From the IMG/VR virus record IMGVR_UViG_3300031087_000497: a stretch of DNA of 64,000 nucleotides; one strand, 5' to 3'. Under the pieces are notes generated by a model. The model was not told the DNA's origin, searched no databases, and saw nothing but the letters and a program-made list of their open reading frames with translations. Of the stretch, positions 18,975 to 29,764 are shown piece by piece; the first letter of the stretch is position 1; every line of letters starts with the position of its first letter. The stretch is from an uncultured virus (IMG/VR IMGVR_UViG_3300031087_000497). Lineage: Duplodnaviria; Heunggongvirae; Uroviricota; Caudoviricetes. The position numbers and the translations under genes are program-made.

Positions 18975-20120
18975 TTGGTGACAGTGGCACGAAAGAAAAG
19001 CGCCGAGACCGGGATGCCGCCTAAGTCCGCCGAGGATAGTCAATCCCCGGACAAGCCCGCCCGTAAAAGGATTACACCCCCTAAACCTCCGGCCAAAAAA
19101 CCAGAGGTTAAGGTGGCAAACGGTCGTGTTGAAAAAAGCATATCTCCCGCAGCGTCTAAAAAGGCCCCCGTCAGGGCAAAGACTGCTGCTCGCTCGCCTG
19201 CCAAACCAGCACAGGTACCAGAGAAAAAGCCGCGCTCAAAAACTGGTGGAGCCGCTGGAAAGGTGCGTGTTCCGAAAGAAGTCAGACTGACCAAAAAAGA
19301 GCACGAAGCCTTGCAGGCCGGGTGTTTGTACGGCCTGGACGAACGCCAGGCTAAGTTCATCGACCTGTGGTTGGTCACCCAAAACGCCACGCGGTCATAC
19401 CAGGATGCAGGTTTTGAGTGCAAGAACGATGCAGTAGCAGCGGCGGCGGCCAGCAGGCTGTTAAGAAAGGTTAGGGAGCATCCCTACACCCAGGCCAAGC
19501 GTGCCGAGCTGTTCGCCAAGACAGAAGAAATCACCAACCGGGTAATTGAGCGCGTCTACGGCGCCGCGATGGCTGACCCGCGTGAACTGGCCGAGGTGGT
19601 CTACAAGTGCTGCCGCTACTGCCATGGAGTGGGCCACGAATACCAGATGACTCCGCGAGAGATGAAAGAGCGGGAAGCGCGGTATGAACAGGCAGTGGCA
19701 GAAGCGAAGAAAGAGCGGAAAAAGCCCCCCGAATTCAACCCCCTGGGCGGTATCGGCTTCGACCTTACCCAGGATCCTCACCCGGAGTGCCCTGAGTGCA
19801 ACGGCGTGGGTGTGCGGGTCGAGATCATTAACGACACCCGATACCTCTCACCTGGTGCGCTCGCTCTGTATGGCGGCTGGAAGGTGACAAAGGAGGGCGG
19901 TGCAGAGGTCAAGATTGCGGACCAGAGACCTTACCTGGAGCTGCTGGGCCGAATCTTCAATATGAACATCGAGCCTGCGGCCCCTCTCGTGGCCGTGGTG
20001 GACATGAATGCGCTGGACGAGGCCTACCGCAAGGGCTTGGAGAAAACCCAGGCCCAGCGTGACGCCATGGCTGAGCGCGCCGCTGCAATCGCGGCACTGA
20101 GTGATGGCGGTGAGGAATGA
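18975..20120 (+). CDS. Terminase small subunit (PacA-like)
   Basis: LDERQAKFIDLW..NATRSYQDAG..AASRLL helix-turn-helix; CCRYC and PECPECNG zinc motifs; long K/P/A-rich N-terminus. Confidence 0.85.
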   Translation: MVTVARKKSAETGMPPKSAEDSQSPDKPARKRITPPKPPAKKPEVKVANGRVEKSISPAASKKAPVRAKTAARSPAKPAQVPEKKPRSKTGGAAGKVRVPKEVRLTKKEHEALQAGCLYGLDERQAKFIDLWLVTQNATRSYQDAGFECKNDAVAAAAASRLLRKVREHPYTQAKRAELFAKTEEITNRVIERVYGAAMADPRELAEVVYKCCRYCHGVGHEYQMTPREMKEREARYEQAVAEAKKERKKPPEFNPLGGIGFDLTQDPHPECPECNGVGVRVEIINDTRYLSPGALALYGGWKVTKEGGAEVKIADQRPYLELLGRIFNMNIEPAAPLVAVVDMNALDEAYRKGLEKTQAQRDAMAERAAAIAALSDGGEE

Positions 20121-20407
20121 CGCTCAACGCCGATCGCGAACCAACCCCCGACAACATCCGCCAAGCCAGGAAGAACCGTGGCCTGAGCGAGAGCGCAGCC
20201 GGTGAACTGATCTACGTGAGCCGCGAGTCGTGGCGCCTGTACGAAAAGGGCACCACCAAAATCAAGCTGGGGCTGTGGGAGCTGTTCCTGTTCAAAACAG
20301 GGCAAATCTGGCTCAAGCCTGTTGTGGAACCGCGACCCAAGGCCAAGCGGCGTGGGCGCGTCGAAAACTTAAGGCCGTTCCGGGCCAACTCGTTAGGAGC
20401 TGACTGA
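20117..20407 (+). CDS. Small HTH DNA-binding protein
   Basis: PTPDNIRQARKNRGLSESAAGELIYVSRESWRLYEKG..LWELF. Confidence 0.8.
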   Translation: MTLNADREPTPDNIRQARKNRGLSESAAGELIYVSRESWRLYEKGTTKIKLGLWELFLFKTGQIWLKPVVEPRPKAKRRGRVENLRPFRANSLGAD

Positions 20408-20997
20408 TGCAGAACAAACCGAAACCGAAAGGGCAGGCGCACGACGACGACCTACTGCTGGCCAGCAACGTGTCAGCGTTCAAACAGTGGCTGATCGCCC
20501 AGGACATTGCCGTGCAGGAACCCGTGGTGGCTCACAAGGCGCGCGGAGTGCATTACTGGGTAGATATCCCTGGTTGCAAGCCTGTATCAGTCCAGGAGGG
20601 CACTGCACGCAAAGCCCGGTACGCACAAACGCACTACCGCCTGCGCCCGTTGCTGAACAGCTTCCTTACTTCGCCCATGGCCAGTGCCATCAAGGCAATC
20701 GTACGCACGAAGACGCCAAGCCCGGTAATGACGGTAGTTGACCGCAAGGTTCAGCCAGTCGCGGCGGCCAACTCCGATGCCTCGACTGGGGCAGATATCG
20801 CGTCCAACAATCCTGAGGCCGTCCAACCGACTGGCAAGGCCATACACGTCAAGCCCCTGGACAAGTTCCTGGTGGACCTGCGCGATGACTTCGCCATCAG
20901 CTGCCCACTGAAGGTCAGGGGCGATGAAAGCATGGCCTCCTTTGCTAATCGCCGCTGGGAGTACGCCCAAGCAATGCTAGACGCGCGCCCACAGTAG
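20407..20997 (+). CDS. Hypothetical protein
   Basis: Coupled ORF; C-terminal LRDDFA..YAQAMLDAR motif. Confidence 0.65.
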   Translation: MQNKPKPKGQAHDDDLLLASNVSAFKQWLIAQDIAVQEPVVAHKARGVHYWVDIPGCKPVSVQEGTARKARYAQTHYRLRPLLNSFLTSPMASAIKAIVRTKTPSPVMTVVDRKVQPVAAANSDASTGADIASNNPEAVQPTGKAIHVKPLDKFLVDLRDDFAISCPLKVRGDESMASFANRRWEYAQAMLDARPQ

Positions 20998-21025
20998 TCC
21001 GGGGATACGCGGGGACCGAACGCGA

Positions 21026-21196
21026 ATGCTGTGCCGATTTTGTGGAAGTGATCGAGTCATCTGGCGGCGGCCTCGGAGGGGCCCCGCCTACACCTATTGC
21101 CGTGACTGCAAGCGCCGCAACTGTGAGGCCATCGCCCACCAGCTGCCGCACGGTGACAACGAATGCGACCGGGCCCAACTGCGGCTCAATGTTTAG
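21026..21196 (+). CDS. 56-aa zinc-ribbon protein
   Basis: MLCRFCGS...YCRDCKRRNC; too short for the ORF track. Confidence 0.55.
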   Translation: MLCRFCGSDRVIWRRPRRGPAYTYCRDCKRRNCEAIAHQLPHGDNECDRAQLRLNV

Positions 21197-21231
21197 GGGA
21201 TGCATATGCAACTTTCAGGAAGGTGCGGGCC

Positions 21232-21816
21232 ATGACCTTGTTCTATCGCCGCGAAGACTTTGAACGCGCTTGTCGACACGCGGGTATCAGTGACCTGGCC
21301 TTTAGCGCCGAAACAGGTGAGTACCAGAACCCCCACACACATAAGGCATACCTGGTGTGGGAATCGCTGGCGCAGACCAAGCAGGCCAGCGCCGGGCCAA
21401 AAGTGTGGCTGACGCGCCGCAGGGGTAAGGATCAAGGCATTGCGGTCACTCGACCCTATTCCACCACCACGCCTTCCGAGTGGGCGCGCATGGACGCCAT
21501 GGGCTGGGAACAACCGTTGGCGCTCTGGCCAGCGATGCCGATTACCAGCGCCAGTGAAAACGCTGTCCTGGTCGAGCGTCAACGGCAGAAGTCGGTCAAG
21601 GGCTACTCCCCTGAACTCGACCTGCGATATGGCAACGACGAGCTACTACGCGCGGCAGCGGCCTATGCACTGCAATGGTTGGCGCCGAGCCAGGCACGGG
21701 CGATCTGGCCGTGGCCGGACTCCCCCATGAAAAGCGTGTCACGCCTGAGGGCGATCGAGAAGGCTGGTGCGCTGCTGATCGCCGATCACGAGCGCGTGAT
21801 GGCGGTGGACGCATGA
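21232..21816 (+). CDS. Hypothetical phage protein
   Basis: ERQRQ..GY..EL.RAAAAYA..WPW..KAGALLIA domain common in phages. Confidence 0.7.
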   Translation: MTLFYRREDFERACRHAGISDLAFSAETGEYQNPHTHKAYLVWESLAQTKQASAGPKVWLTRRRGKDQGIAVTRPYSTTTPSEWARMDAMGWEQPLALWPAMPITSASENAVLVERQRQKSVKGYSPELDLRYGNDELLRAAAAYALQWLAPSQARAIWPWPDSPMKSVSRLRAIEKAGALLIADHERVMAVDA

Positions 21817-22478
21817 AAACCAAAGCACCCGTTGTAATCGACTTGGCCCAACTACAGGCGCGCCTCCACACAAAGCGGGCAGATCCAGTTTTTCACGATG
21901 ATCCGCGCTACGCAGAGTTTCGCGAGCGTTACGGCGCCGATCTTTGCGCATTCGCTGAAGAGGTGTTTGGCGTAGAGCTGGATCCTGAAACGCGCAAGGC
22001 CTACCTCAATGCAAGTAAGCCTGGTACCCGCATGGTGCTGTCCGATGTTCTCGACATGCGTGAGGCCCGGTTCCCACCGGTTGCGCTGTGGGCAATGCTC
22101 TTTCATCCGTGCAATGAAGTGGTGGTTATTGCGCCGAGGAATGAACTGCACCGATGCCACTGGCGCGCCTACATGAAGGTTGCGAAAGGCGCCCATGGCT
22201 GGCTTGGGAAGCACCTGCGCATTACACAGTCGGGTATTCGAACAGAGGCTGGTTACCTGGGGCCGAGAATTTCGTTCAGGACCGCGACCAACCATTCACC
22301 GGAAAACCTGGCGGGCATGTCCGGTCATCAAATGTTGTTTCTGGTCGAGGGTGCAGCGCGGATCGGCGACCAATGCATTCAGGTACTTCACGCCAGCCTT
22401 CGAGAGCCAATGGTTTCCGAGGTGCTGGCGCTTTCGTGCTTCACAGTCGTGCAAACCAGCCCGCAGGTCGCGCACTAA
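21813..22478 (+). CDS. Terminase ATPase-domain paralogue lacking Walker motifs
   Basis: Colinear similarity to the N-terminal ~190 aa of 22534-24084 (DPR..ERY..DL..FA.E; RTA...SPENLAG); Walker A and B altered. Confidence 0.85.
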   Translation: MKTKAPVVIDLAQLQARLHTKRADPVFHDDPRYAEFRERYGADLCAFAEEVFGVELDPETRKAYLNASKPGTRMVLSDVLDMREARFPPVALWAMLFHPCNEVVVIAPRNELHRCHWRAYMKVAKGAHGWLGKHLRITQSGIRTEAGYLGPRISFRTATNHSPENLAGMSGHQMLFLVEGAARIGDQCIQVLHASLREPMVSEVLALSCFTVVQTSPQVAH

Positions 22479-22491
22479 CGCACTTTAGAGT
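22451..22491 (+). promoter_or_regulatory. Putative late promoter (terminase large subunit)
   Basis: GCAAACC-N28-TAGAGT. Confidence 0.65.
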
Positions 22492-22495
22492 TATG

Positions 22496-22518
22496 GGGCC
22501 GGTCCACCGGCCCTTTTT
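22496..22518 (+). terminator. Intrinsic terminator between the dead paralogue and the real terminase
   Basis: GGGCCGG-TCCA-CCGGCCC-TTTTT. Confidence 0.7.
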
Positions 22519-22533
22519 GTGTTTAGGGAACCC

Positions 22534-24084
22534 ATGGCCAAGCCAAAGCCCAAAAGTCTGCGCCTAGAATCAGACCCGAGGTGGCCAGCTTTCATCGAAC
22601 GTTACGCCTTCGACCTGTACAAGTTCGCCGTCGAAGCGTGCCTGATGGATGTCACCCCGCAGCAGAAAGAACTCTTCGACGAGACGTCCGTTTTTGGCTG
22701 TCGCGTCTCGGTGTCGTCTGGCCACGGTACCGGCAAGACTCGCGGCTTTGGTGTGACCTGCCTGTGGCACCTGCTCAGTTACCTGCACTCAAACACCTAT
22801 GTGACGGCGCCCAAGCTCAAGACCGTACGGGAGGGCGTGTGGAAAGAGATCACCACGATTCTGGCGCAAATCCGTAAGGGGCCCCACGCTTGGATCGCTG
22901 ACTACGTAGTGATTCAGGCCGAGAAGGTCTATGTAGTCGGTCACAGCGCCACCTGGTACGTCACCACACGCACCGCCCCGCGCGGCTCACCTGAAAATCT
23001 GGCCGGTACCCACGGCGAGTACCTGTTGTGGCTGGCGGACGAAGCGTCAGGCATTCCAGACGAAAACTTTGGCGTGATCGGTGGCGCCCTTACAGATGAC
23101 CGCAACCGCTTCGTCATGGCCAGCCAGCCAACCCGATCCAGCGGCTTCTTTTGGGATACGCATCACGGGCAGTCGATCAAACGGGGCGGGCCTTGGGTAC
23201 CGCTGGTATTCAACTCGGAAGAGAGCCCAATTGTCTCCCTCAAGTTCATCAGGGAGAAGCGCCAGCAGTACGGCGGTGTCGGCGAAGCGGAGTATCAAAT
23301 CAAGGTGAAGGGGATGTTCCCTACCAACTTGAGCAAATACCTGCTGAACACGACGCTGCTTGAGCGCGCTATTGCGGCTCAAAGTCCAATCCTGCCAGGT
23401 GAAGAGTGGGGCCACCTCATCGTTGTCGACGTCGCCGCTGGCGTTGGGCGTGACAAGACTGTGGCCACGCACATGCGCGTAAGCGGTAAAGGCGATCGGA
23501 TGCTCAACGAGCGGCGCCGGAAAGTTGAAGTGGTCGACATCCCGATCTATAGCTCCACCGAGGACTGGACGCCGCTGGCGGTCAAGTTGCGCGACTACGC
23601 CATGCGCTTGCCCAACGTCACCATAGTGATCGACGTAAGCGCCATGGGCGTGCAGTTCATGAAGCGTCTCCAGGAGCTGCAAGAGGGCAGCATGATCATC
23701 CAGGGCGTGCAGTGGGGCGCTCGTCCGCACTCAAACGAATACCGCAAGCGATTCCTTAACCAGAGGGCGCAATGCACCGTGCACGCCACAGAGGCGATCA
23801 AAGACGGCGTGGTCAAGCTGGCGAAGAAGCATCAGCGCGACCTGATCGACCAAGGCTCACGCCTGCCGTACTCCTTCGACGATCAGGGGCGCTACAAGAT
23901 CGCCACCAAGGAAAGCATGGAAGCCGACGGGCTTTCATCCCCGGACCTTTTTGACACCATCTGCATGGCGTTTCTTGAGGACGTCAATTACATCGCGTGC
24001 AGCGAGCAGAGCGCGATGGTGAAGACATCTCGCGCTGAAGCGACCCTGAAAAAAGCCATGTCCAGATTTGATAACGTCGCATAA
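22534..24084 (+). CDS. Terminase large subunit (PacB-like)
   Basis: Walker A SGHGTGKT, Walker B LLWLADEA, SQP coupling motif, nuclease VDVAAGVGRD and SPDLFD. Confidence 0.93.
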   Translation: MAKPKPKSLRLESDPRWPAFIERYAFDLYKFAVEACLMDVTPQQKELFDETSVFGCRVSVSSGHGTGKTRGFGVTCLWHLLSYLHSNTYVTAPKLKTVREGVWKEITTILAQIRKGPHAWIADYVVIQAEKVYVVGHSATWYVTTRTAPRGSPENLAGTHGEYLLWLADEASGIPDENFGVIGGALTDDRNRFVMASQPTRSSGFFWDTHHGQSIKRGGPWVPLVFNSEESPIVSLKFIREKRQQYGGVGEAEYQIKVKGMFPTNLSKYLLNTTLLERAIAAQSPILPGEEWGHLIVVDVAAGVGRDKTVATHMRVSGKGDRMLNERRRKVEVVDIPIYSSTEDWTPLAVKLRDYAMRLPNVTIVIDVSAMGVQFMKRLQELQEGSMIIQGVQWGARPHSNEYRKRFLNQRAQCTVHATEAIKDGVVKLAKKHQRDLIDQGSRLPYSFDDQGRYKIATKESMEADGLSSPDLFDTICMAFLEDVNYIACSEQSAMVKTSRAEATLKKAMSRFDNVA

Positions 24085-24208
24085 ATATAGTTTTTTATGT
24101 ATTAATCTGTATATTCGGACATGGCCGAACAATTAAACCCCGCAATTCTGGCCATAACCATCGGTTAAGCGCAAATAGAATGTACGGGGATCGTTTGAGG
24201 GGCTTGGT

Positions 24209-24574
24209 ATGGAACTGCGTCGTTACACAAAGAACTATCACGAGAAACCAGAGACGGTGAGCGCCTACGCGTTCGTTGCCTTTTGGGCGGATGACAAATA
24301 CATCCATGGCCTGGACCGAGAGGGCGAGGTTTGGCTACTGAAGGGTGGTCACACGCTCAAAGAGATCGAGGCCAACACGGCGGGGCTTGCCCGGATTCAC
24401 CGACGCGCCATCATTCGACTGGACGCCATTGCCCACTTGGTAACGCGAACCCCGCCAGGTGGGAGTTTTAGCGCTTACTGCATGGTCGGCGGCGAAGAAT
24501 TCAAGGTCTCCCGCAAGTGCAGGCCAACCATTCAGGCGCTACATGCCGCCCACGTTTCAAAGGGGGCCGCATGA
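24209..24574 (+). CDS. Stand-alone LytTR-type DNA-binding domain protein
   Basis: ADDKYI, TLKEIE, ARIHRRAIIRL, FKVSRK. Confidence 0.8.
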   Translation: MELRRYTKNYHEKPETVSAYAFVAFWADDKYIHGLDREGEVWLLKGGHTLKEIEANTAGLARIHRRAIIRLDAIAHLVTRTPPGGSFSAYCMVGGEEFKVSRKCRPTIQALHAAHVSKGAA

Positions 24575-25422
24575 CACACAGCCGACACGAAGAGAATTTG
24601 GCCTACCTGGCTAGGATGGGGCGCCTGAGCAAGACCAAGAAGGCCAACGAGCGCGATGGGTACACCAGCTTTTATGAGAAGAAAGGCCGCCCGGCTGGCG
24701 TTTCGTTGAAGCCAACCGACGTTCCGTCGCTGGTGGCTACAGCCCTGTCCAGCGGTGGCCCGATCAAAACCGGTGAAGCCTTTGAGCACCTGTTATCGGT
24801 GGTGTGTGACAGTTCCCGGTTCTATGCCTACCACTTCATCATCGCGGCTTCACGCGGTACCGGTGGATGCCGAGCGATTCTATTGAGCGCCCGCACGCTG
24901 AATGGCCCCTGCCAGTCCCGCGCAGCAACCTTGGCCTACGCCACGAAACTGGTTGAGTATGCTGGTGCGTTGGGTTCGCCTCGGGTGATGATCGACGAGA
25001 CGTCACATTGTTGCTTCCTGGCCCAGGCACTTAACCATGGCGTGCCCAACAACCTGGTATGGGCGGACGCGCGCGTGCAGTGGCCACCTACCGATGAGGC
25101 GTTAAGGACACAGTACCTGGACAACTATGCCTTGGGGTTTGACCGCTACCGACAGGCGCTGGCCACCAACTCGGTGAAGCTCCCCGAAATGGATTTGCTG
25201 GCAGACCAGGTAAAGGCCATGGCACCACGGTTGGATGCAGAAGGGCGGATGACCCTCAACAGCCCTGGCGACAAGATGGAGCGTGAGCTGAACGCCCTAT
25301 GCCTGCTGTACCTGGACGTGGCAAGCGCTCATCTGATGGTGCCAGGCTCGCGGGTTGAGCCTGGCCAGGCATTCGCGCGGCCTCCCGGAGACCGGTATTC
25401 AGCAAGACTTGACCATGTTTGA
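24571..25422 (+). CDS. Terminase nuclease-domain paralogue lacking catalytic aspartates
   Basis: Colinear similarity to the C-terminal half of 22534-24084 (PI..GE...HL; A.KL..YA..L....ID; VKL; DQ; D..GR). Confidence 0.75.
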   Translation: MTHSRHEENLAYLARMGRLSKTKKANERDGYTSFYEKKGRPAGVSLKPTDVPSLVATALSSGGPIKTGEAFEHLLSVVCDSSRFYAYHFIIAASRGTGGCRAILLSARTLNGPCQSRAATLAYATKLVEYAGALGSPRVMIDETSHCCFLAQALNHGVPNNLVWADARVQWPPTDEALRTQYLDNYALGFDRYRQALATNSVKLPEMDLLADQVKAMAPRLDAEGRMTLNSPGDKMERELNALCLLYLDVASAHLMVPGSRVEPGQAFARPPGDRYSARLDHV

Positions 25423-25476
25423 TAACAGTTATTAAGTCAGCTATTCTGAATGCACGGTTATCTGGAGATAAAAAAC

Positions 25477-25734
25477 ATGATTAGTGCCGATCTTGGCAAG
25501 TCGCTTGAAAACTATGTGACGCAACTCACCGAGTCCGGTCGCTACGGCTCGAAAAGCGAAGTCCTGCGTGAAGGTGTACGGTTGGTCCAGGATCGTGAAA
25601 CCCGCCTGGCGGCTTTGGACGCCTCAATCGCTCGCGGCCTGGGCGATATCGAAGCGGGCCGCACCAAGCCTGCGGCAGAGGTCTTTGACCGACTGGCAGC
25701 AAGATACGAGGCGATGGTTGATAAGCCCGAATGA
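25477..25734 (+). CDS. parD: ParD-family antitoxin
   Basis: SGRYGSKSEVLREGVRL..GLGDIEAGR. Confidence 0.9.
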   Translation: MISADLGKSLENYVTQLTESGRYGSKSEVLREGVRLVQDRETRLAALDASIARGLGDIEAGRTKPAAEVFDRLAARYEAMVDKPE

Positions 25735-26021
25735 TCGTCCACATCACAGATGAAGCTGTAGGCGATCTTGAGCAAATCGGCGACTACATCGCCCAGGACA
25801 ATCCACGCCGTGCGTTGTCGTTCGTCCTTGAGCTGCGTGACAAGTGCCTGAGCTTGGCCAGCACCTACCAATCCTTCCCCCTCATTGCCCGCTACGGCCT
25901 ACGCCGCAGGATCCATGGCAATTATGCGATCTTCTACCAGGTGGAAGCTGATCGCGTTGTTGTCGTGCACGTCCTTCATGGTGCGATGGATCACGCGTCG
26001 ATCTTTCTCGACTCTGAATAA
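25731..26021 (+). CDS. parE: ParE/RelE-family toxin
   Basis: AVGDLEQIGDYIAQDNPRRA..YAIFY..VLHGAMD. Confidence 0.9.
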   Translation: MIVHITDEAVGDLEQIGDYIAQDNPRRALSFVLELRDKCLSLASTYQSFPLIARYGLRRRIHGNYAIFYQVEADRVVVVHVLHGAMDHASIFLDSE

Positions 26022-26040
26022 GCCCCACTGCGCTGTCTAA

Positions 26041-26140
26041 TGGCTCAAAAGGATGGTTCTTTTATAGGTGGCTCATTTAAGTTAGCCATTCTCTAAATGA
26101 GCCAACCCTGATATGGTTGGGTCTTTAGGGTATACCCAAA
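26041..26140. other. Putative res (multimer resolution) site
   Basis: Inverted repeat GGCTCATTTA(26070)..TAAATGAGCC(26103) and related half-sites directly upstream of the resolvase. Confidence 0.55.
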
Positions 26141-26151
26141 GGAGCCAGGCT

Positions 26152-26808
26152 ATGACCCCCACCAACGTTGCGCGGGTTTATCTGCGTGTCAGCACCGAAG
26201 GCCAGGACTTGCAGCGACAGGAAGCGATAATCGGCGACGCACGAAACTCGGGCTATTACGTGGCGGCGGTCTATCGTGAAAAAGCGTCAGGCGCACGCCC
26301 CGACCGTCCCGAACTGCTGCGCATGATCGAGGATCTACAACCGGGCGAAGTTGTCATTGCGGAAAAGATTGACCGCATCAGCCGTCTGCCGTTGGCGGAA
26401 GCGGAAAAGCTCGTTGAGACAATTCGGGCCAAAGGCGCGCGTCTGGCTGTACCGGGTATCGTTGACCTGTCTGAGTTGGCAGAAGCGTCGAGTGGGGTCG
26501 CCAAGGTGGTTATACAGAGCGTGCAGGAGATGCTGTTGCGCGTGGCCCTGCAAATGGCGCGCGATGATTTTGAGGATCGCCGTGAGCGGCAGCGTCAGGG
26601 CATCGACCTGGCCAAGGGCGCAGGGCGCTACCTTGGACGTAAGCCAGACACAAAAATGCACGAGCGCGTTATTGCGCATAAGCGTAACGGTACCAGCATT
26701 GCGGAAACCGCAAGACTGGCCGACTGTAGCGTCAGCCAGGTTAAGCGCATCTGGGCCCAGTACACGGCCAACACAAGTTCCGCTCCGCAACTCCTCACAC
26801 ACCAATAG
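26152..26808 (+). CDS. Serine recombinase (resolvase)
   Basis: YLRVSTEGQ, EKASG..RPEL, KIDRISR, C-terminal HTH. Confidence 0.93.
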   Translation: MTPTNVARVYLRVSTEGQDLQRQEAIIGDARNSGYYVAAVYREKASGARPDRPELLRMIEDLQPGEVVIAEKIDRISRLPLAEAEKLVETIRAKGARLAVPGIVDLSELAEASSGVAKVVIQSVQEMLLRVALQMARDDFEDRRERQRQGIDLAKGAGRYLGRKPDTKMHERVIAHKRNGTSIAETARLADCSVSQVKRIWAQYTANTSSAPQLLTHQ

Positions 26809-28191: not shown

Positions 28192-29247
28192 ATGTTGAAA
28201 ATTGGAGACACGTTTTACCTTACCGCACCAGTGGTAATTAATACGGATGAATACAAACCACAAACGTTCGGAGGTGGCGGCAGCGGCGACGGAAGTATAG
28301 GTAATAGCCGTCTAGGAGCATTAATCAGTGCTGCGACGCGTGCGCATATTCTGAATACTTTCCCTGCCAAAATTGCTAAAGACGTTAAAGATCAAGAGAG
28401 CAATATTGTTACTAAACTGCAAACGCTGCCACAAACGTTAGATGATAGCATTGCTGCTCTTACCCAACAAAACCCGGCTCATAATACAGCCGATACTGCC
28501 AAACAGCTCGAAAATTATGTTACGGCCAATAATCTCCTTCTCACCCAAAAAACACAGGAGTACAGCCAACAAAAAACGATTGCAGATTCGTATTATTATG
28601 GACGGGACTTTTTTAGCTATCCCACCAATCGATTCATCTCGCTTGCCATTAGCAATGGCATGGTTAATATGAGTCCTGATGTACACTATAAAAAATGGTT
28701 TACTTCGTTGCAGGCAGCGTATAACGCGAAATATATCCAATACCAAATCGACTATTTGACTAAAACTAAAGCGTGGTTGCAGGGGTTGACTCCAGAGATG
28801 TTAAGCGCTGAGGCGCTGCGCTTACAAGAAGCAGAGCGGCGTGCAGCGAATAAGCAGGTTCCGTCAATTCCAGCCGGCGTTTCTTTGGATGAAAACATGA
28901 GGATCTCTAAGGCTACGCGAGATTCAGCAAAGCTGGTTATAGGTGGTGAAAACGCATTTGTTTATGGTGTTTTTTACACCAAAGTTAGAAATGGCGGTGA
29001 ATGGGATTATAAACAGCGAGGCCGCCAATTCGAAGAGTTTGGGAATTTCAACTACGGCGCCACTGGCACAGCAGCGGGAATTCCGGAGCAAATCCTGCTG
29101 CGTGCCGCAGGCGCGGCGCAAAGTCAAGCGGGCACGTCGGAAGCGGATTTTGGTAAGTGGTGGAAAGAAACTCCGTATGGGGATGACAGGGTAGATCAGG
29201 TCTGGATTAAAGCAGGCATTGAACACGCTAAGACCAAAGGGTACTGA
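28192..29247 (+). CDS. S-pyocin-like bacteriocin with C-terminal Ntox44 (polymorphic toxin 44) domain
   Basis: Gly-rich N-terminus, helical middle, C-terminal KVRNGGEWDYK..FGNFNYGATG..LLRAAG.AQ..PYGDD..DQ..IKAG; AT-rich relative to flanks. Confidence 0.8.
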   Translation: MLKIGDTFYLTAPVVINTDEYKPQTFGGGGSGDGSIGNSRLGALISAATRAHILNTFPAKIAKDVKDQESNIVTKLQTLPQTLDDSIAALTQQNPAHNTADTAKQLENYVTANNLLLTQKTQEYSQQKTIADSYYYGRDFFSYPTNRFISLAISNGMVNMSPDVHYKKWFTSLQAAYNAKYIQYQIDYLTKTKAWLQGLTPEMLSAEALRLQEAERRAANKQVPSIPAGVSLDENMRISKATRDSAKLVIGGENAFVYGVFYTKVRNGGEWDYKQRGRQFEEFGNFNYGATGTAAGIPEQILLRAAGAAQSQAGTSEADFGKWWKETPYGDDRVDQVWIKAGIEHAKTKGY

Positions 29248-29275
29248 GGTTTTTAAATCTGTTAAAAAACACGCG

Positions 29276-29303
29276 TTGACGCTACAGACAAGCCCTGTAA
29301 AAT
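29276..29303 (+). promoter_or_regulatory. Separate promoter for the downstream gene
   Basis: TTGACG-16bp-TAAAAT. Confidence 0.55.
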
Positions 29304-29353
29304 GGGCTTGTTATTATCAATGCGCTCATTGAATACGCTCTAGGGGAATTTTT

Positions 29354-29764
29354 ATGAAACGATGGTTTCAAGGCTTATGCAACCTTGTTTTGGTTGGCTG
29401 CCTCGTTTACTTCGGTATAAGCTGGACAAGCTCACCATCCGCAGCTAATTTAGATGAAATTGTTTATAAACACCCCCTTGGTAATGGTAATTCGCTTTAT
29501 GGAGCGCGCGACAATCGCGGGGGAGCGACGGTCGGGTTTTCCTATCGTTACTATATTTCCAAGCAGACTGATACTGATGAACAAGCGCTAGCTTTGTTAA
29601 ATGAAAAGCCTCCATTTTTAATAACGAAAGATCCCGAGGTGTCCGCTAAAGTTGTAGATGGCGCACTCCATCTGTCCATTCGCGGAAGAGTTTATGATTT
29701 CAGTAATTACACGCTGAATAGCATTAAGGATTCCGGTGATATTAAAGTCATTATAGGGCTATAA
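29354..29764 (+). CDS. Membrane-anchored protein, candidate immunity protein
   Basis: Follows the toxin, same low GC, N-terminal hydrophobic helix, GGATVGFSYRYY motif. Confidence 0.6.
   Translation: MKRWFQGLCNLVLVGCLVYFGISWTSSPSAANLDEIVYKHPLGNGNSLYGARDNRGGATVGFSYRYYISKQTDTDEQALALLNEKPPFLITKDPEVSAKVVDGALHLSIRGRVYDFSNYTLNSIKDSGDIKVIIGL

What the first reader, a model, noticed from the sequence alone, without database searches (positions are those of the whole stretch)
21813..25422. Intact large terminase bracketed by two separately encoded, dead half-terminases: candidate decoy or packaging-control system
Seen: the gene before the terminase is a diverged copy of its ATPase half and the gene two places after it is a diverged copy of its nuclease half. 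Both are uninterrupted ORFs (221 and 283 aa), both are translationally coupled to an upstream gene by ATGA overlaps, and both have lost catalytic motifs while keeping structural ones. The real terminase has its own late-type promoter (22451) and is separated from the upstream paralogue by a terminator (22496-22518), so the paralogues appear to be transcribed separately from it. Known: STAND-family Avs receptors detect phage terminases, and Avs3 contacts both ATPase and nuclease active-site residues; satellites also target terminases. Inference: the half-proteins may be decoys that occupy terminase-sensing defences without triggering them, dominant-negative subunits that poison packaging by competing phages, or timers of the phage's own packaging. 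I do not know of a description of this arrangement.
Basis: partly seen in the sequence, partly recalled or inferred. Interest (0 to 1): 0.92.

Follow-up and report, generated by a model that had tools for sequence, protein, structure and literature searches.

The report
Dead terminase-domain copies flanking real terminase
A P1-like Pseudomonas phage-plasmid keeps two intact genes, beside its DNA-packaging enzyme gene, that copy one half of that enzyme each but lack its catalytic residues; they are kept by selection yet are optional and fast-evolving, so they probably work by binding something still unknown.

Summary

TerL itself is intact and is a homologue of phage P1 PacB (34.5% identity). 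Both half-genes start on an ATGA overlap with the gene before them. Both are under purifying selection (dN/dS about 0.1-0.3).

They are also optional. The ATPase copy is present in 12 of 16 related loci. The nuclease copy occurs only in the 8 closest loci. Amino-acid change is about ten-fold faster than in TerL for the ATPase copy and roughly three- to seven-fold faster for the nuclease copy. Relatives carry two further dead nuclease copies, so partial duplication of TerL recurs in this lineage.

The function is untested. I favour non-catalytic mimics that bind TerL's partners. Published data count against the Avs-decoy idea. The terminator before TerL is real and conserved. The "late promoter" is a conserved motif whose role is unproven. 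The scan had already noted the same arrangement on related DNA in other genomes.

The parts
18975..20120 (+). Small terminase (PacA-like TerS), first gene of the packaging block
   Evidence: Pfam Terminase_2 E 1.7e-12; PHROG 51 terminase small subunit E 1.5e-19; conserved in the related loci whose upstream flank is visible
20117..20407 (+). Small HTH-like protein, conserved neighbour
   Evidence: Pfam HTH_31 E 2e-4, below the curated cut-off; 44-85% identical in related loci
20407..20997 (+). 196-aa protein of unknown function. In 7 close relatives its homologue carries a ~250-aa inserted dead TerL-nuclease domain that the window copy lacks
   Evidence: BLASTP of locus ORFs; alignment of the inserts shows D299->R in 6 of the 6 inserts aligned (L007 not aligned)
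21163..21816 (+). Conserved gene of unknown function whose stop overlaps the start of the ATPase-like gene (its likely start is the Met at 21232)
   Evidence: Present in 16 of 16 loci with a visible upstream flank; C-terminal domain matches 9 PHROGs of unknown function
21813..22478 (+). ATPase-like half-terminase (P0001, 221 aa): TerL ATPase fold without a P-loop
22451..22491 (+). Conserved cis element GCAAA[CG]C, 35 nt, TAGAGT-like hexamer; overlaps the last codons of whichever gene lies upstream of TerL
   Evidence: GCAAA[CG]C at -79 to -86 in 18 of 18 sequences; TA[GAC][AG]GT-like at -44 to -51 in 17 of 18; occurs once in the window
22495..22525 (+). Intrinsic-terminator-like hairpin (8 bp, 7 G-C) with a T run, directly before the TerL ribosome-binding site
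   Evidence: Scan. GC-rich hairpin at this place in relatives with changed stem bases, followed by a U-rich run in 13 of 18 by my reading of the print
22534..24084 (+). Intact large terminase TerL (PacB type). The ORF opens at GTG 22519, but ATG 22534 matches the relatives' start
   Evidence: PHROG 2 terminase large subunit E 2.8e-32. 34.5% identical to P1 PacB over 96%. GKT, Walker-B DE, D299, D367 and D471/D474 invariant in 15 of 15 TerLs
24209..24574 (+). LytTR-like small protein, a conserved gene found in 15 of 19 related loci (incl. 1 by eye in L021); its stop overlaps the start of the nuclease-like gene
   Evidence: Pfam LytTR E 2.4e-4, 21.7 bits, below the 22.6 cut-off. PHROG 13895 E 1.9e-4. 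Present in distant relatives with a different downstream partner
24571..25422 (+). Nuclease-like half-terminase (P0003, 283 aa): TerL nuclease fold with an incomplete catalytic triad and a disordered ~40-aa N-terminus

Best explanation
The two genes are selected, non-enzymatic copies of the two domains of a PacB-type large terminase. They arose by partial tandem duplication of the terminase gene in the ancestor of a small clade of ~80-kb Pseudomonas P1-like phage-plasmids.

They keep the folds and some surfaces of TerL but not its chemistry. The ATPase copy keeps the N-terminal helical motif and the PENLAG loop. The nuclease copy keeps the first strand-hairpin with H73, D80 and H88.

They are made together with the packaging proteins, by translational coupling inside the packaging block. 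I propose that they act by occupying something that normally binds a TerL domain. Candidates are TerS, the portal, DNA ends, TerL itself, or a foreign protein that targets TerL. In this way they would modulate or protect packaging.

Shown here: paralogy, fold, motif loss, purifying selection, optional presence, fast and mosaic evolution, recurrence.

Inferred: that they bind at all, what they bind, and the effect.
For: Paralogy and fold.

Loss of chemistry: 0 of 26 ATPase copies have the Walker-A Lys. The Walker-B Asp is Glu in 25 of 26. The catalytic Glu is kept in 1 of 26. The R150 position is never Arg.

Selection: dN/dS is 0.11-0.31 for the ATPase copy and 0.09-0.12 for the nuclease copy at unsaturated pairs, against 0.04-0.10 for TerL. 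All 12 + 8 locus copies are open frames.

Retained surface: the 25-31 N-terminal codons are 39-60% identical to the element's own TerL, against 23-34% for the rest, in 11 of 11 elements. Synonymous sites there are mostly saturated (pS 0.64-0.84 in 9 of 11), so this is selection and not recent gene conversion.

Coupling: a 4-nt start/stop overlap with the upstream gene in 10 of 12 loci for the ATPase copy and 8 of 8 for the nuclease copy, plus the window.

Recurrence: there are four separate kinds of dead TerL-domain copy in this clade. A dead PacB-N paralogue also occurs in E. coli P1-like elements.
Against: A partner that binds the well-conserved TerL or TerS would be expected to evolve slowly. 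Yet the ATPase copy has dN 0.6-1.0 where TerL has 0.04-0.11.

The copies are dispensable. Four of 16 relatives lack the ATPase copy, and all 11 relatives with TerL at 63-67% identity lack the nuclease copy. They are therefore not core parts of the motor.

The nuclease copy keeps an invariant polar cluster (E72, H73, D80 in 25 of 26, H88, an acid at 239 in 26 of 26). A remodelled active site is therefore not excluded.
Confidence: 0.5

Rival explanations
1. Immune decoys. The half-proteins bind terminase-sensing receptors (Avs1-3, Upx) without activating them, and so shield the real TerL.
For: The copies are optional, fast-evolving and exchanged between relatives, as arms-race genes usually are. 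They sit next to TerL, so co-expression is likely. Loss of ATP binding could uncouple binding from activation. The PhiV-1 TerL chain of the Avs3 complex (8dgc_E) is among the structural matches of both models.
Against: In passages read from PMC13601566 and PMC11564622:
- Isolated ATPase domains and the TerL-like proteins vs.8, Ksap1 and Ksap2 activate Avs2.
- The ATPase domain alone activates Upx.
- Avs3 recognises active-site residues and bound ATP, which these copies lack, so they should bind worse, not better.

The anti-Avs proteins listed in the EVADES preprint are a ligase and a DprA-like protein, not mimics. No PADLOC match. No Avs of the host was examined.
Confidence: 0.12
2. Packaging interference against rivals, or protection from them. 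One version: the copies are dominant-negative subunits that poison the terminase of related superinfecting phages or satellites. The other version: they are sponges for terminase-directed inhibitors such as TerI, Ppi or Gpi.
For: Terminase-directed interference between mobile elements is established. TerI binds TerS and blocks packaging, and Ppi, RppA and Gpi are cited in the same preprint (10.1101/2025.02.27.640495: abstract, section 8 and passages). Allele swapping is seen here: L004 vs L008 have TerL dS 0.37 but ATPase-copy dS 2.1.
Against: The genes lie in the packaging block, coupled to late-type genes. They are not in an early or lysogeny-expressed position as terI is. No self-immunity partner is evident. 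No binding was tested.
Confidence: 0.15
3. Remodelled enzymes. The nuclease-like protein is still a nuclease or another metal-dependent enzyme with a shifted active site, working with the LytTR-like DNA-binding protein. The ATPase-like protein binds nucleotide in a non-canonical way.
For: Invariant or near-invariant E72, H73, D80, H88 and an acid at 239 in the P3 family (nuclease-like family). The window protein itself has D80 and D142. Coupling to a putative DNA-binding protein is conserved in 8 of 8 loci.
Against: The second catalytic position is D/E in only 13 of 26 members and the third is never Asp. H73, D80 and H88 are also conserved in TerL, so they may be structural. The ATPase copy has no P-loop at all.
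Confidence: 0.1
4. Functionless leftovers of partial duplications that have not yet decayed.
For: The genes are optional and highly diverged, and the family is narrow. It comprises 11 clusters among 1.84 billion representatives and 15 short proteins in the word-based search.
Against: dN/dS is well below 1. There are no stops or frameshifts in any of the 12 + 8 locus copies, although amino-acid identity between types has fallen to 23-34%. Start-codon overlaps are conserved.
Confidence: 0.04

Closest known systems
Phage P1 pacase (PacA/PacB)
   Same: The window TerL is 34.5% identical to PacB over 96% of its length. TerS is Terminase_2/PacA-like. The element is a P1-like phage-plasmid with ParA-like, replication-initiator, DarB-like and Hdf-like genes.
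   Different: In P1, pacA and pacB abut with overlapping stop and start and no genes between them. Reference P1 has no second PacB-like match. Here 4 genes separate TerS from TerL, one of them a dead TerL half, and a second dead half follows TerL.
T4 vs.8, with Ksap1 and Ksap2: stand-alone phage proteins resembling the TerL ATPase domain
   Same: A separately encoded protein homologous or structurally similar to the TerL ATPase domain, lineage-restricted and of unknown function (PMC13601566 passages; PMC11564622 passage).
   Different: vs.8 keeps Walker A and B and activates EcAvs2. The copies here have lost both motifs. No nuclease-domain counterpart is described there. Sequence relatedness to vs.8 was not tested here.
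Terminase-directed inhibitors of mobile elements (TerI of Listeria prophages; Ppi, RppA, Gpi of satellites)
   Same: Small accessory proteins of temperate elements that act on packaging by binding terminase subunits. They are variable loci with alternative alleles (10.1101/2025.02.27.640495: abstract, section 8, passages).
   Different: None is described there as a terminase paralogue. terI lies in the early module and is expressed in lysogeny. Binding by the window proteins is untested.
Dead PacB-N paralogue of E. coli P1-like phage-plasmids
   Same: A 364-aa ORF matches TerL residues 15-269 (E 2.5e-28). The P-loop Lys is Glu and the Walker-B DE is NS by my reading of the translation. It is optional, present in 3 of 23 matching phage records.
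   Different: It lies about 23 kb from pacB, is not adjacent to it, and carries an extra C-terminal region. It is closer to P1 PacB (34-36%) than to the Pseudomonas proteins, so it is probably an independent duplication. I found no paper that describes it.

Membership tests
Large terminase, PacB type (applies to 22534-24084) | Homology to PacB/TerL over both domains | tested here: met
   34.5% identity to P1 PacB over 96% of the query; PHROG 2 E 2.8e-32
Large terminase, PacB type (applies to 22534-24084) | Walker A GKT, Walker B DE, three nuclease acids | tested here: met
   G67 K68 T69, D169 E170, D299, D367 and D471/D474 invariant in 15 of 15 TerLs
Functional TerL ATPase domain (applies to P0001) | ASCE/TerL ATPase fold | tested here: met
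Functional TerL ATPase domain (applies to P0001) | Walker-A P-loop lysine | tested here: not met
   0 of 26 family members have Lys at the K68 column; the loop is replaced or deleted
Functional TerL ATPase domain (applies to P0001) | Walker-B Asp-Glu | tested here: not met
   Asp is Glu in 25 of 26 and His in 1. Glu is Gly 8, Ala 4, Asp 13, Glu 1
Functional TerL nuclease domain (applies to P0003) | RNase-H-like terminase nuclease fold | tested here: met
Functional TerL nuclease domain (applies to P0003) | Three conserved catalytic acids (TerL D299, D367, D474) | tested here: not met
   The first is kept (D80, 25 of 26; aligned directly by BLASTP, offset by 2 in hhalign). The second is D/E in 13 of 26. 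The third is never Asp. Residue mapping is by sequence only, because model coordinates could not be inspected
vs.8-like stand-alone TerL ATPase paralogues | Intact Walker A and B; activates Avs2 | tested here: not met
   Walker motifs are absent; Avs2 activation is not testable here
Anti-Avs or Avs-decoy protein | Binds a terminase-sensing STAND receptor and lowers its activation | not testable with these tools
   No host receptor in hand; complex prediction unavailable
Terminase inhibitor of TerI, Ppi or Gpi kind | Binds TerS or TerL and blocks packaging | not testable with these tools
   Complex prediction unavailable; needs a bench assay
Intrinsic terminator (22495-22525) | G+C-rich hairpin followed by a U run | tested here: met
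   8-bp stem with 7 G-C pairs, then TTTTTGTGTTT. The hairpin is conserved in relatives. Termination itself is not shown
LytTR DNA-binding domain (applies to 24209-24574) | Score at or above Pfam's gathering cut-off | tested here: inconclusive
   21.7 bits against a cut-off of 22.6, E 2.4e-4

The most novel reading that the evidence does not exclude
PacB-type phage-plasmids repeatedly make sacrificial look-alikes of their own terminase domains. These copies have been stripped of the ATP site and the catalytic acids, so that they neither work as enzymes nor show the features that immune sensors read. Made alongside TerL, they would soak up proteins that attack or hijack the terminase. Such attackers include host sensors of the Avs/Upx kind, TerI-like packaging blockers of resident prophages, and satellite proteins of the Ppi/Gpi kind. 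This would be a class of counter-defence based on self-mimicry.
Probability: 0.2. Interest if true: 0.85.

Novelty: new variant of a known kind. Interest (0 to 1): 0.62.

Why it matters
The large terminase is the most conserved protein of tailed phages and a main target of bacterial immune sensors and of parasitic satellites. A lineage that repeatedly duplicates single terminase domains, removes their catalytic residues and then keeps them under selection points to a use for the terminase shape that does not involve packaging chemistry.

If the copies regulate the phage's own pacase, they add a new layer to headful packaging control in P1-type phages. If they are mimics in a conflict, they would be the first counter-measure aimed at terminase-directed defence or hijacking that works by self-mimicry.

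The question can be tested directly. A cultured host with a close relative exists (P. fluorescens DR133, 81-kb plasmid). A separate dead PacB-N paralogue occurs in some E. coli P1-like phages, a genetically tractable system.

Tried and rejected
- Complex prediction (TerL with the ATPase-like family) was not available, so no binding prediction exists.
- Expression: no RNA holder was listed for 20000-26000, only DNA contigs.
- Pfam gave nothing for TerL or either half. PADLOC gave nothing.
- Sequence searches of the PDB gave nothing useful, even for TerL.
- The P3 family profile (nuclease-like family) finds only its own 11 clusters among 1.84 billion representatives, and no TerL at library-wide E <= 0.001. 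The link to TerL therefore rests on profile-profile comparison and fold.
- 'Late-type promoter': the motif is unique in the window and unlike P1 LPpac, so the label was dropped.
- 'One ancestral second TerL split by insertion of the present TerL': this fits the complementary coverage (TerL ~12-240 and 279-490). I rank it below independent partial tandem duplications for three reasons. The two halves have different distributions. L020 shows a fresh TerL-plus-extra-nuclease arrangement. Nuclease copies also occur inserted in another gene.
- Gene conversion as the cause of the conserved N-terminal motif was rejected for most elements (pS 0.64-0.84). It is possible in L010 and L014 (pS 0.41-0.44).
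- A dead PacB copy in reference P1 was sought and not found.
- Literature: searches on terminase with paralog/inactive, with decoy/Avs, with pseudoenzyme, with Walker A/second copy, on phage-plasmid Pseudomonas, and on TerI found no description of P-loop-less or triad-less stand-alone TerL domains. Supplements of the papers were not opened.

Full report
**What is at the coordinates**

The window carries, on the + strand, a packaging block:
- a PacA-like small terminase (18975-20120; Pfam Terminase_2 E 1.7e-12)
- a small HTH-like gene (20117-20407)
- a 196-aa gene (20407-20997)
- a 217-aa gene (21163-21816)
- the 221-aa ATPase-like gene (21813-22478)
- a hairpin with a T run (22495-22525)
- the large terminase TerL (ORF from GTG 22519; ATG 22534 matches the relatives; stop 24084)
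- a LytTR-like gene (24209-24574)
- the 283-aa nuclease-like gene (24571-25422)

Both half-genes begin with an ATG whose last two bases, with the next two, form the stop codon of the gene before them.

TerL is intact. Its GKT, Walker-B DE and the acids D299, D367 and D471/D474 are invariant in 15 of 15 TerLs of the clade. It is 34.5% identical to PacB of phage P1 over 96% of its length.

The rest of the window holds a portal, baseplate and tail-fibre genes, a replication initiator, a ParA-like gene, and DarB-like and Hdf-like genes. The closest named record is a circular 81-kb plasmid of P. fluorescens DR133. The element is therefore a P1-like phage-plasmid of Pseudomonas.

**The ATPase-like copy**

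The 26 family members comprise 18 in alignment A3 plus 8. Their counts at TerL's catalytic positions are:

| TerL position | State in the 26 ATPase-like copies |
|---|---|
| Walker-A Lys (K68) | kept in 0 |
| Walker-B Asp (D169) | Glu in 25, His in 1 |
| Catalytic Glu (E170) | kept in 1 (Gly 8, Ala 4, Asp 13) |
| R150 | never Arg |

What is kept is the N-terminal helical motif (DxRWPAFxxRYAxDLxAF) and the PENLAG loop (Glu in 24 of 26). The N-terminal 25-31 codons are 39-60% identical to the same element's TerL, against 23-34% for the rest, in 11 of 11 elements. Synonymous differences there are mostly saturated. From recalled knowledge of lambda gpA and T4 gp17, this end of TerL is where TerS binds. 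That is a lead, not a test.

**The nuclease-like copy**

Counts over 26 members at the three catalytic positions:
- First acid: D80 is kept in 25 of 26. BLASTP aligns it directly with D299; hhalign offsets it by two residues.
- Second acid: Asp in the window protein, but D/E in only 13 of 26.
- Third acid: never Asp (Glu in 10 of 26).

An adjacent position (239) is acidic in 26 of 26, and E72, H73 and H88 are invariant. The canonical triad is therefore not conserved, but a remodelled site cannot be excluded. 'Dead' is an inference.

**Relatives, distribution and origin**

Nineteen related loci were fetched, from contigs of about 80-95 kb where complete.

The ATPase copy lies immediately upstream of TerL in 12 of the 16 loci whose upstream flank is complete. 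A cut copy sits at a contig end in L022. The copy is absent from L011, L013, L018 and L020. Its start overlaps the upstream stop by 4 nt in 10 of 12 loci and by 8 nt in 2. In a tree with TerL N-halves the family is one clade (SH-aLRT 95), with branches about ten times longer than TerL's.

The nuclease copy is found in all 8 loci whose TerL is at least 83% identical to the window's. It is found in none of the 11 loci at 63-67%. It always overlaps the LytTR-like gene's stop by 4 nt. In the distant group the LytTR-like gene is followed by an unrelated ~160-aa gene.

Two more kinds of dead nuclease copy exist:
- A ~250-aa domain inserted in the homologue of 20407-20997 in 7 close relatives. TerL's D299 is Arg in 6 of the 6 inserts aligned (L007 not aligned). 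The window lacks this insert.
- An extra ORF directly after TerL in L020, with D299 changed to Val.

In the tree these form separate groups (P3 clade, the nuclease-like family, 100; insert clade 86; the L020 copy falls in an unresolved polytomy with the TerL C-halves). Partial tandem duplication, N'-[N-C]-C', is the simplest origin.

More distant PacB-type plasmids have no such copies near TerL. This was checked in P. psychrotolerans (TerL 54%) and Burkholderia pBVIE05 (49%).

The families are narrow. The nuclease-like family has 11 clusters in 1.84 billion representatives, all 171-275 aa. The word-based search for the ATPase-like family found 15 proteins under the length cap, 14 of them 185-266 aa.

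**Selection**

Nei-Gojobori estimates at pairs with unsaturated dS:

| Gene | dN/dS |
|---|---|
| ATPase copy | 0.11-0.31 |
| Nuclease copy | 0.09-0.12 |
| TerL | 0.04-0.10 |
| Neighbouring accessory genes | 0.04-0.32 |

No copy carries a stop or frameshift. Divergence is not proportional to TerL's. L004 vs L008 have TerL dS 0.37 but ATPase-copy dS 2.1. This indicates exchange of alleles between elements.

**Signals**

The hairpin at 22495-22514 (8 bp, 7 G-C) followed by TTTTTGTGTTT is a good terminator-like site. A GC-rich hairpin sits at the same place in the relatives, with altered stem bases. By my reading it is followed by a U-rich run in 13 of 18.

It is also present where the ATPase copy is absent. 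It therefore insulates TerL from the upstream genes in general, not from the paralogue in particular.

Upstream of it, GCAAA[CG]C lies at -79 to -86 in 18 of 18 sequences. A TAGAGT-like hexamer lies 35 nt later in 17 of 18. The element overlaps the last codons of whichever gene lies upstream, so it is a cis element. It may be a promoter whose transcripts start inside the hairpin, but nothing shows this. It is unique in the window and unlike P1's LPpac.

No terminator-like site separates TerL from the downstream pair on the + strand.

**How it most likely works**

Shown:
- fold without catalytic residues
- purifying selection
- coupling to packaging genes
- optional presence
- fast, mosaic evolution
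- recurrence

Inferred: the proteins act by binding. I commit to non-catalytic mimics of TerL domains, made at packaging time, that occupy a TerL partner or a TerL-directed protein (confidence 0.5).

The sub-readings cannot be separated here. They are own-packaging control, protection from or interference with rivals (0.15), and Avs/Upx decoy (0.12).

The decoy reading is weakened by published passages (PMC13601566; PMC11564622):
- Isolated TerL ATPase domains activate EcAvs2 and Upx.
- T4 vs.8, a TerL-ATPase paralogue with intact Walker motifs, is toxic with EcAvs2, and Ksap2 activates KpAvs2.
- Avs3 reads active-site residues and bound ATP.

Loss of these features may instead be a way not to be sensed.

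Terminase-directed interference between elements is real. TerI binds TerS, and Ppi, RppA and Gpi are cited alongside it (10.1101/2025.02.27.640495: abstract, section 8, passages). None of these is a terminase paralogue.

**Comparison, earlier notes and novelty**

The scan had already noted the same arrangement in three windows of two other genomes of this phage family. It had also noted dead PacB-like paralogues in P1-type elements.

I tested the latter lead. An E. coli P1-like plasmid has a 364-aa ORF matching TerL residues 15-269 (E 2.5e-28), about 23 kb from pacB. By my reading of the translation, the P-loop Lys is replaced by Glu and the Walker-B DE by NS. The ORF is present in 3 of 23 matching phage records and absent from reference P1 and P7.

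In print I found only vs.8, Ksap1 and Ksap2 as stand-alone TerL-ATPase look-alikes. I found nothing on triad-less stand-alone nuclease domains. The paper library covers open-access papers only, and supplements were not read.

I class the finding as a new variant of a known kind: single-domain terminase paralogues, here stripped of their catalytic residues, occurring for both domains and arising repeatedly.

**Verdict**

The function is open. Interest is moderate to high.

Noticed in passing
window 28192-29764: An AT-poor-GC island (GC 0.47 against about 0.58 around it) holds a 351-aa ORF with a C-terminal Ntox44 'bacterial toxin 44' domain (E 1.1e-14). A 136-aa ORF without any family match follows it. 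This may be a polymorphic toxin with its immunity gene carried as cargo.
   Followed up: partly
window 25450-26808: A ParD/ParE toxin-antitoxin pair (Pfam E 2.2e-11 and 4.5e-18) and a resolvase/invertase gene lie between the nuclease-like gene and the structural genes. In relatives the tail/baseplate-like genes follow much sooner, so this looks like an accessory insertion.
   Followed up: partly
L017 6013-8307 and L018 5995-8307: TerL of two relatives is 764-770 aa because of a ~250-aa insert right after residue ~70, that is, in the Walker-A loop. It has a Hom_end_hint match (E 5.9e-13), so it is an intein. A third relative (NZ_CP070504.1) is annotated as a Hint-domain homing endonuclease at its TerL.
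   Followed up: partly
window 22451-22525 and the same place in L004-L022: A cis element is conserved in 18 of 18 sequences: GCAAA[CG]C, a fixed 35-nt spacing, a TAGAGT-like hexamer, then a GC hairpin. It constrains the C-terminal codons (..VQT / ..AQS) of whichever gene precedes TerL. Its role (promoter, operator or terminator) is unknown.
   Followed up: partly
L029 1186-2280 (NZ_CP123256.1, E. coli P1-like plasmid): A 364-aa dead PacB-N paralogue lies about 23 kb from pacB. It is present in 3 of 23 matching phage records and absent from reference P1 and P7. In some records it is annotated 'terminase large subunit'.
   Followed up: partly
L020 7555-8442: The extra nuclease-like ORF after TerL ends in a '...RGIGASSGDT...' segment. 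In other relatives this segment begins a separate gene downstream of TerL. The dead nuclease domain is therefore fused to different partners in different elements.
   Followed up: no
window 24085-24208: The 124-nt spacer between TerL and the LytTR-like gene is markedly AT-rich (TAAATATAGTTTTTTATGTATTAATCTGTATATTC). The scan called only a minus-strand promoter-like site there. An own promoter for the downstream pair is possible.
   Followed up: no
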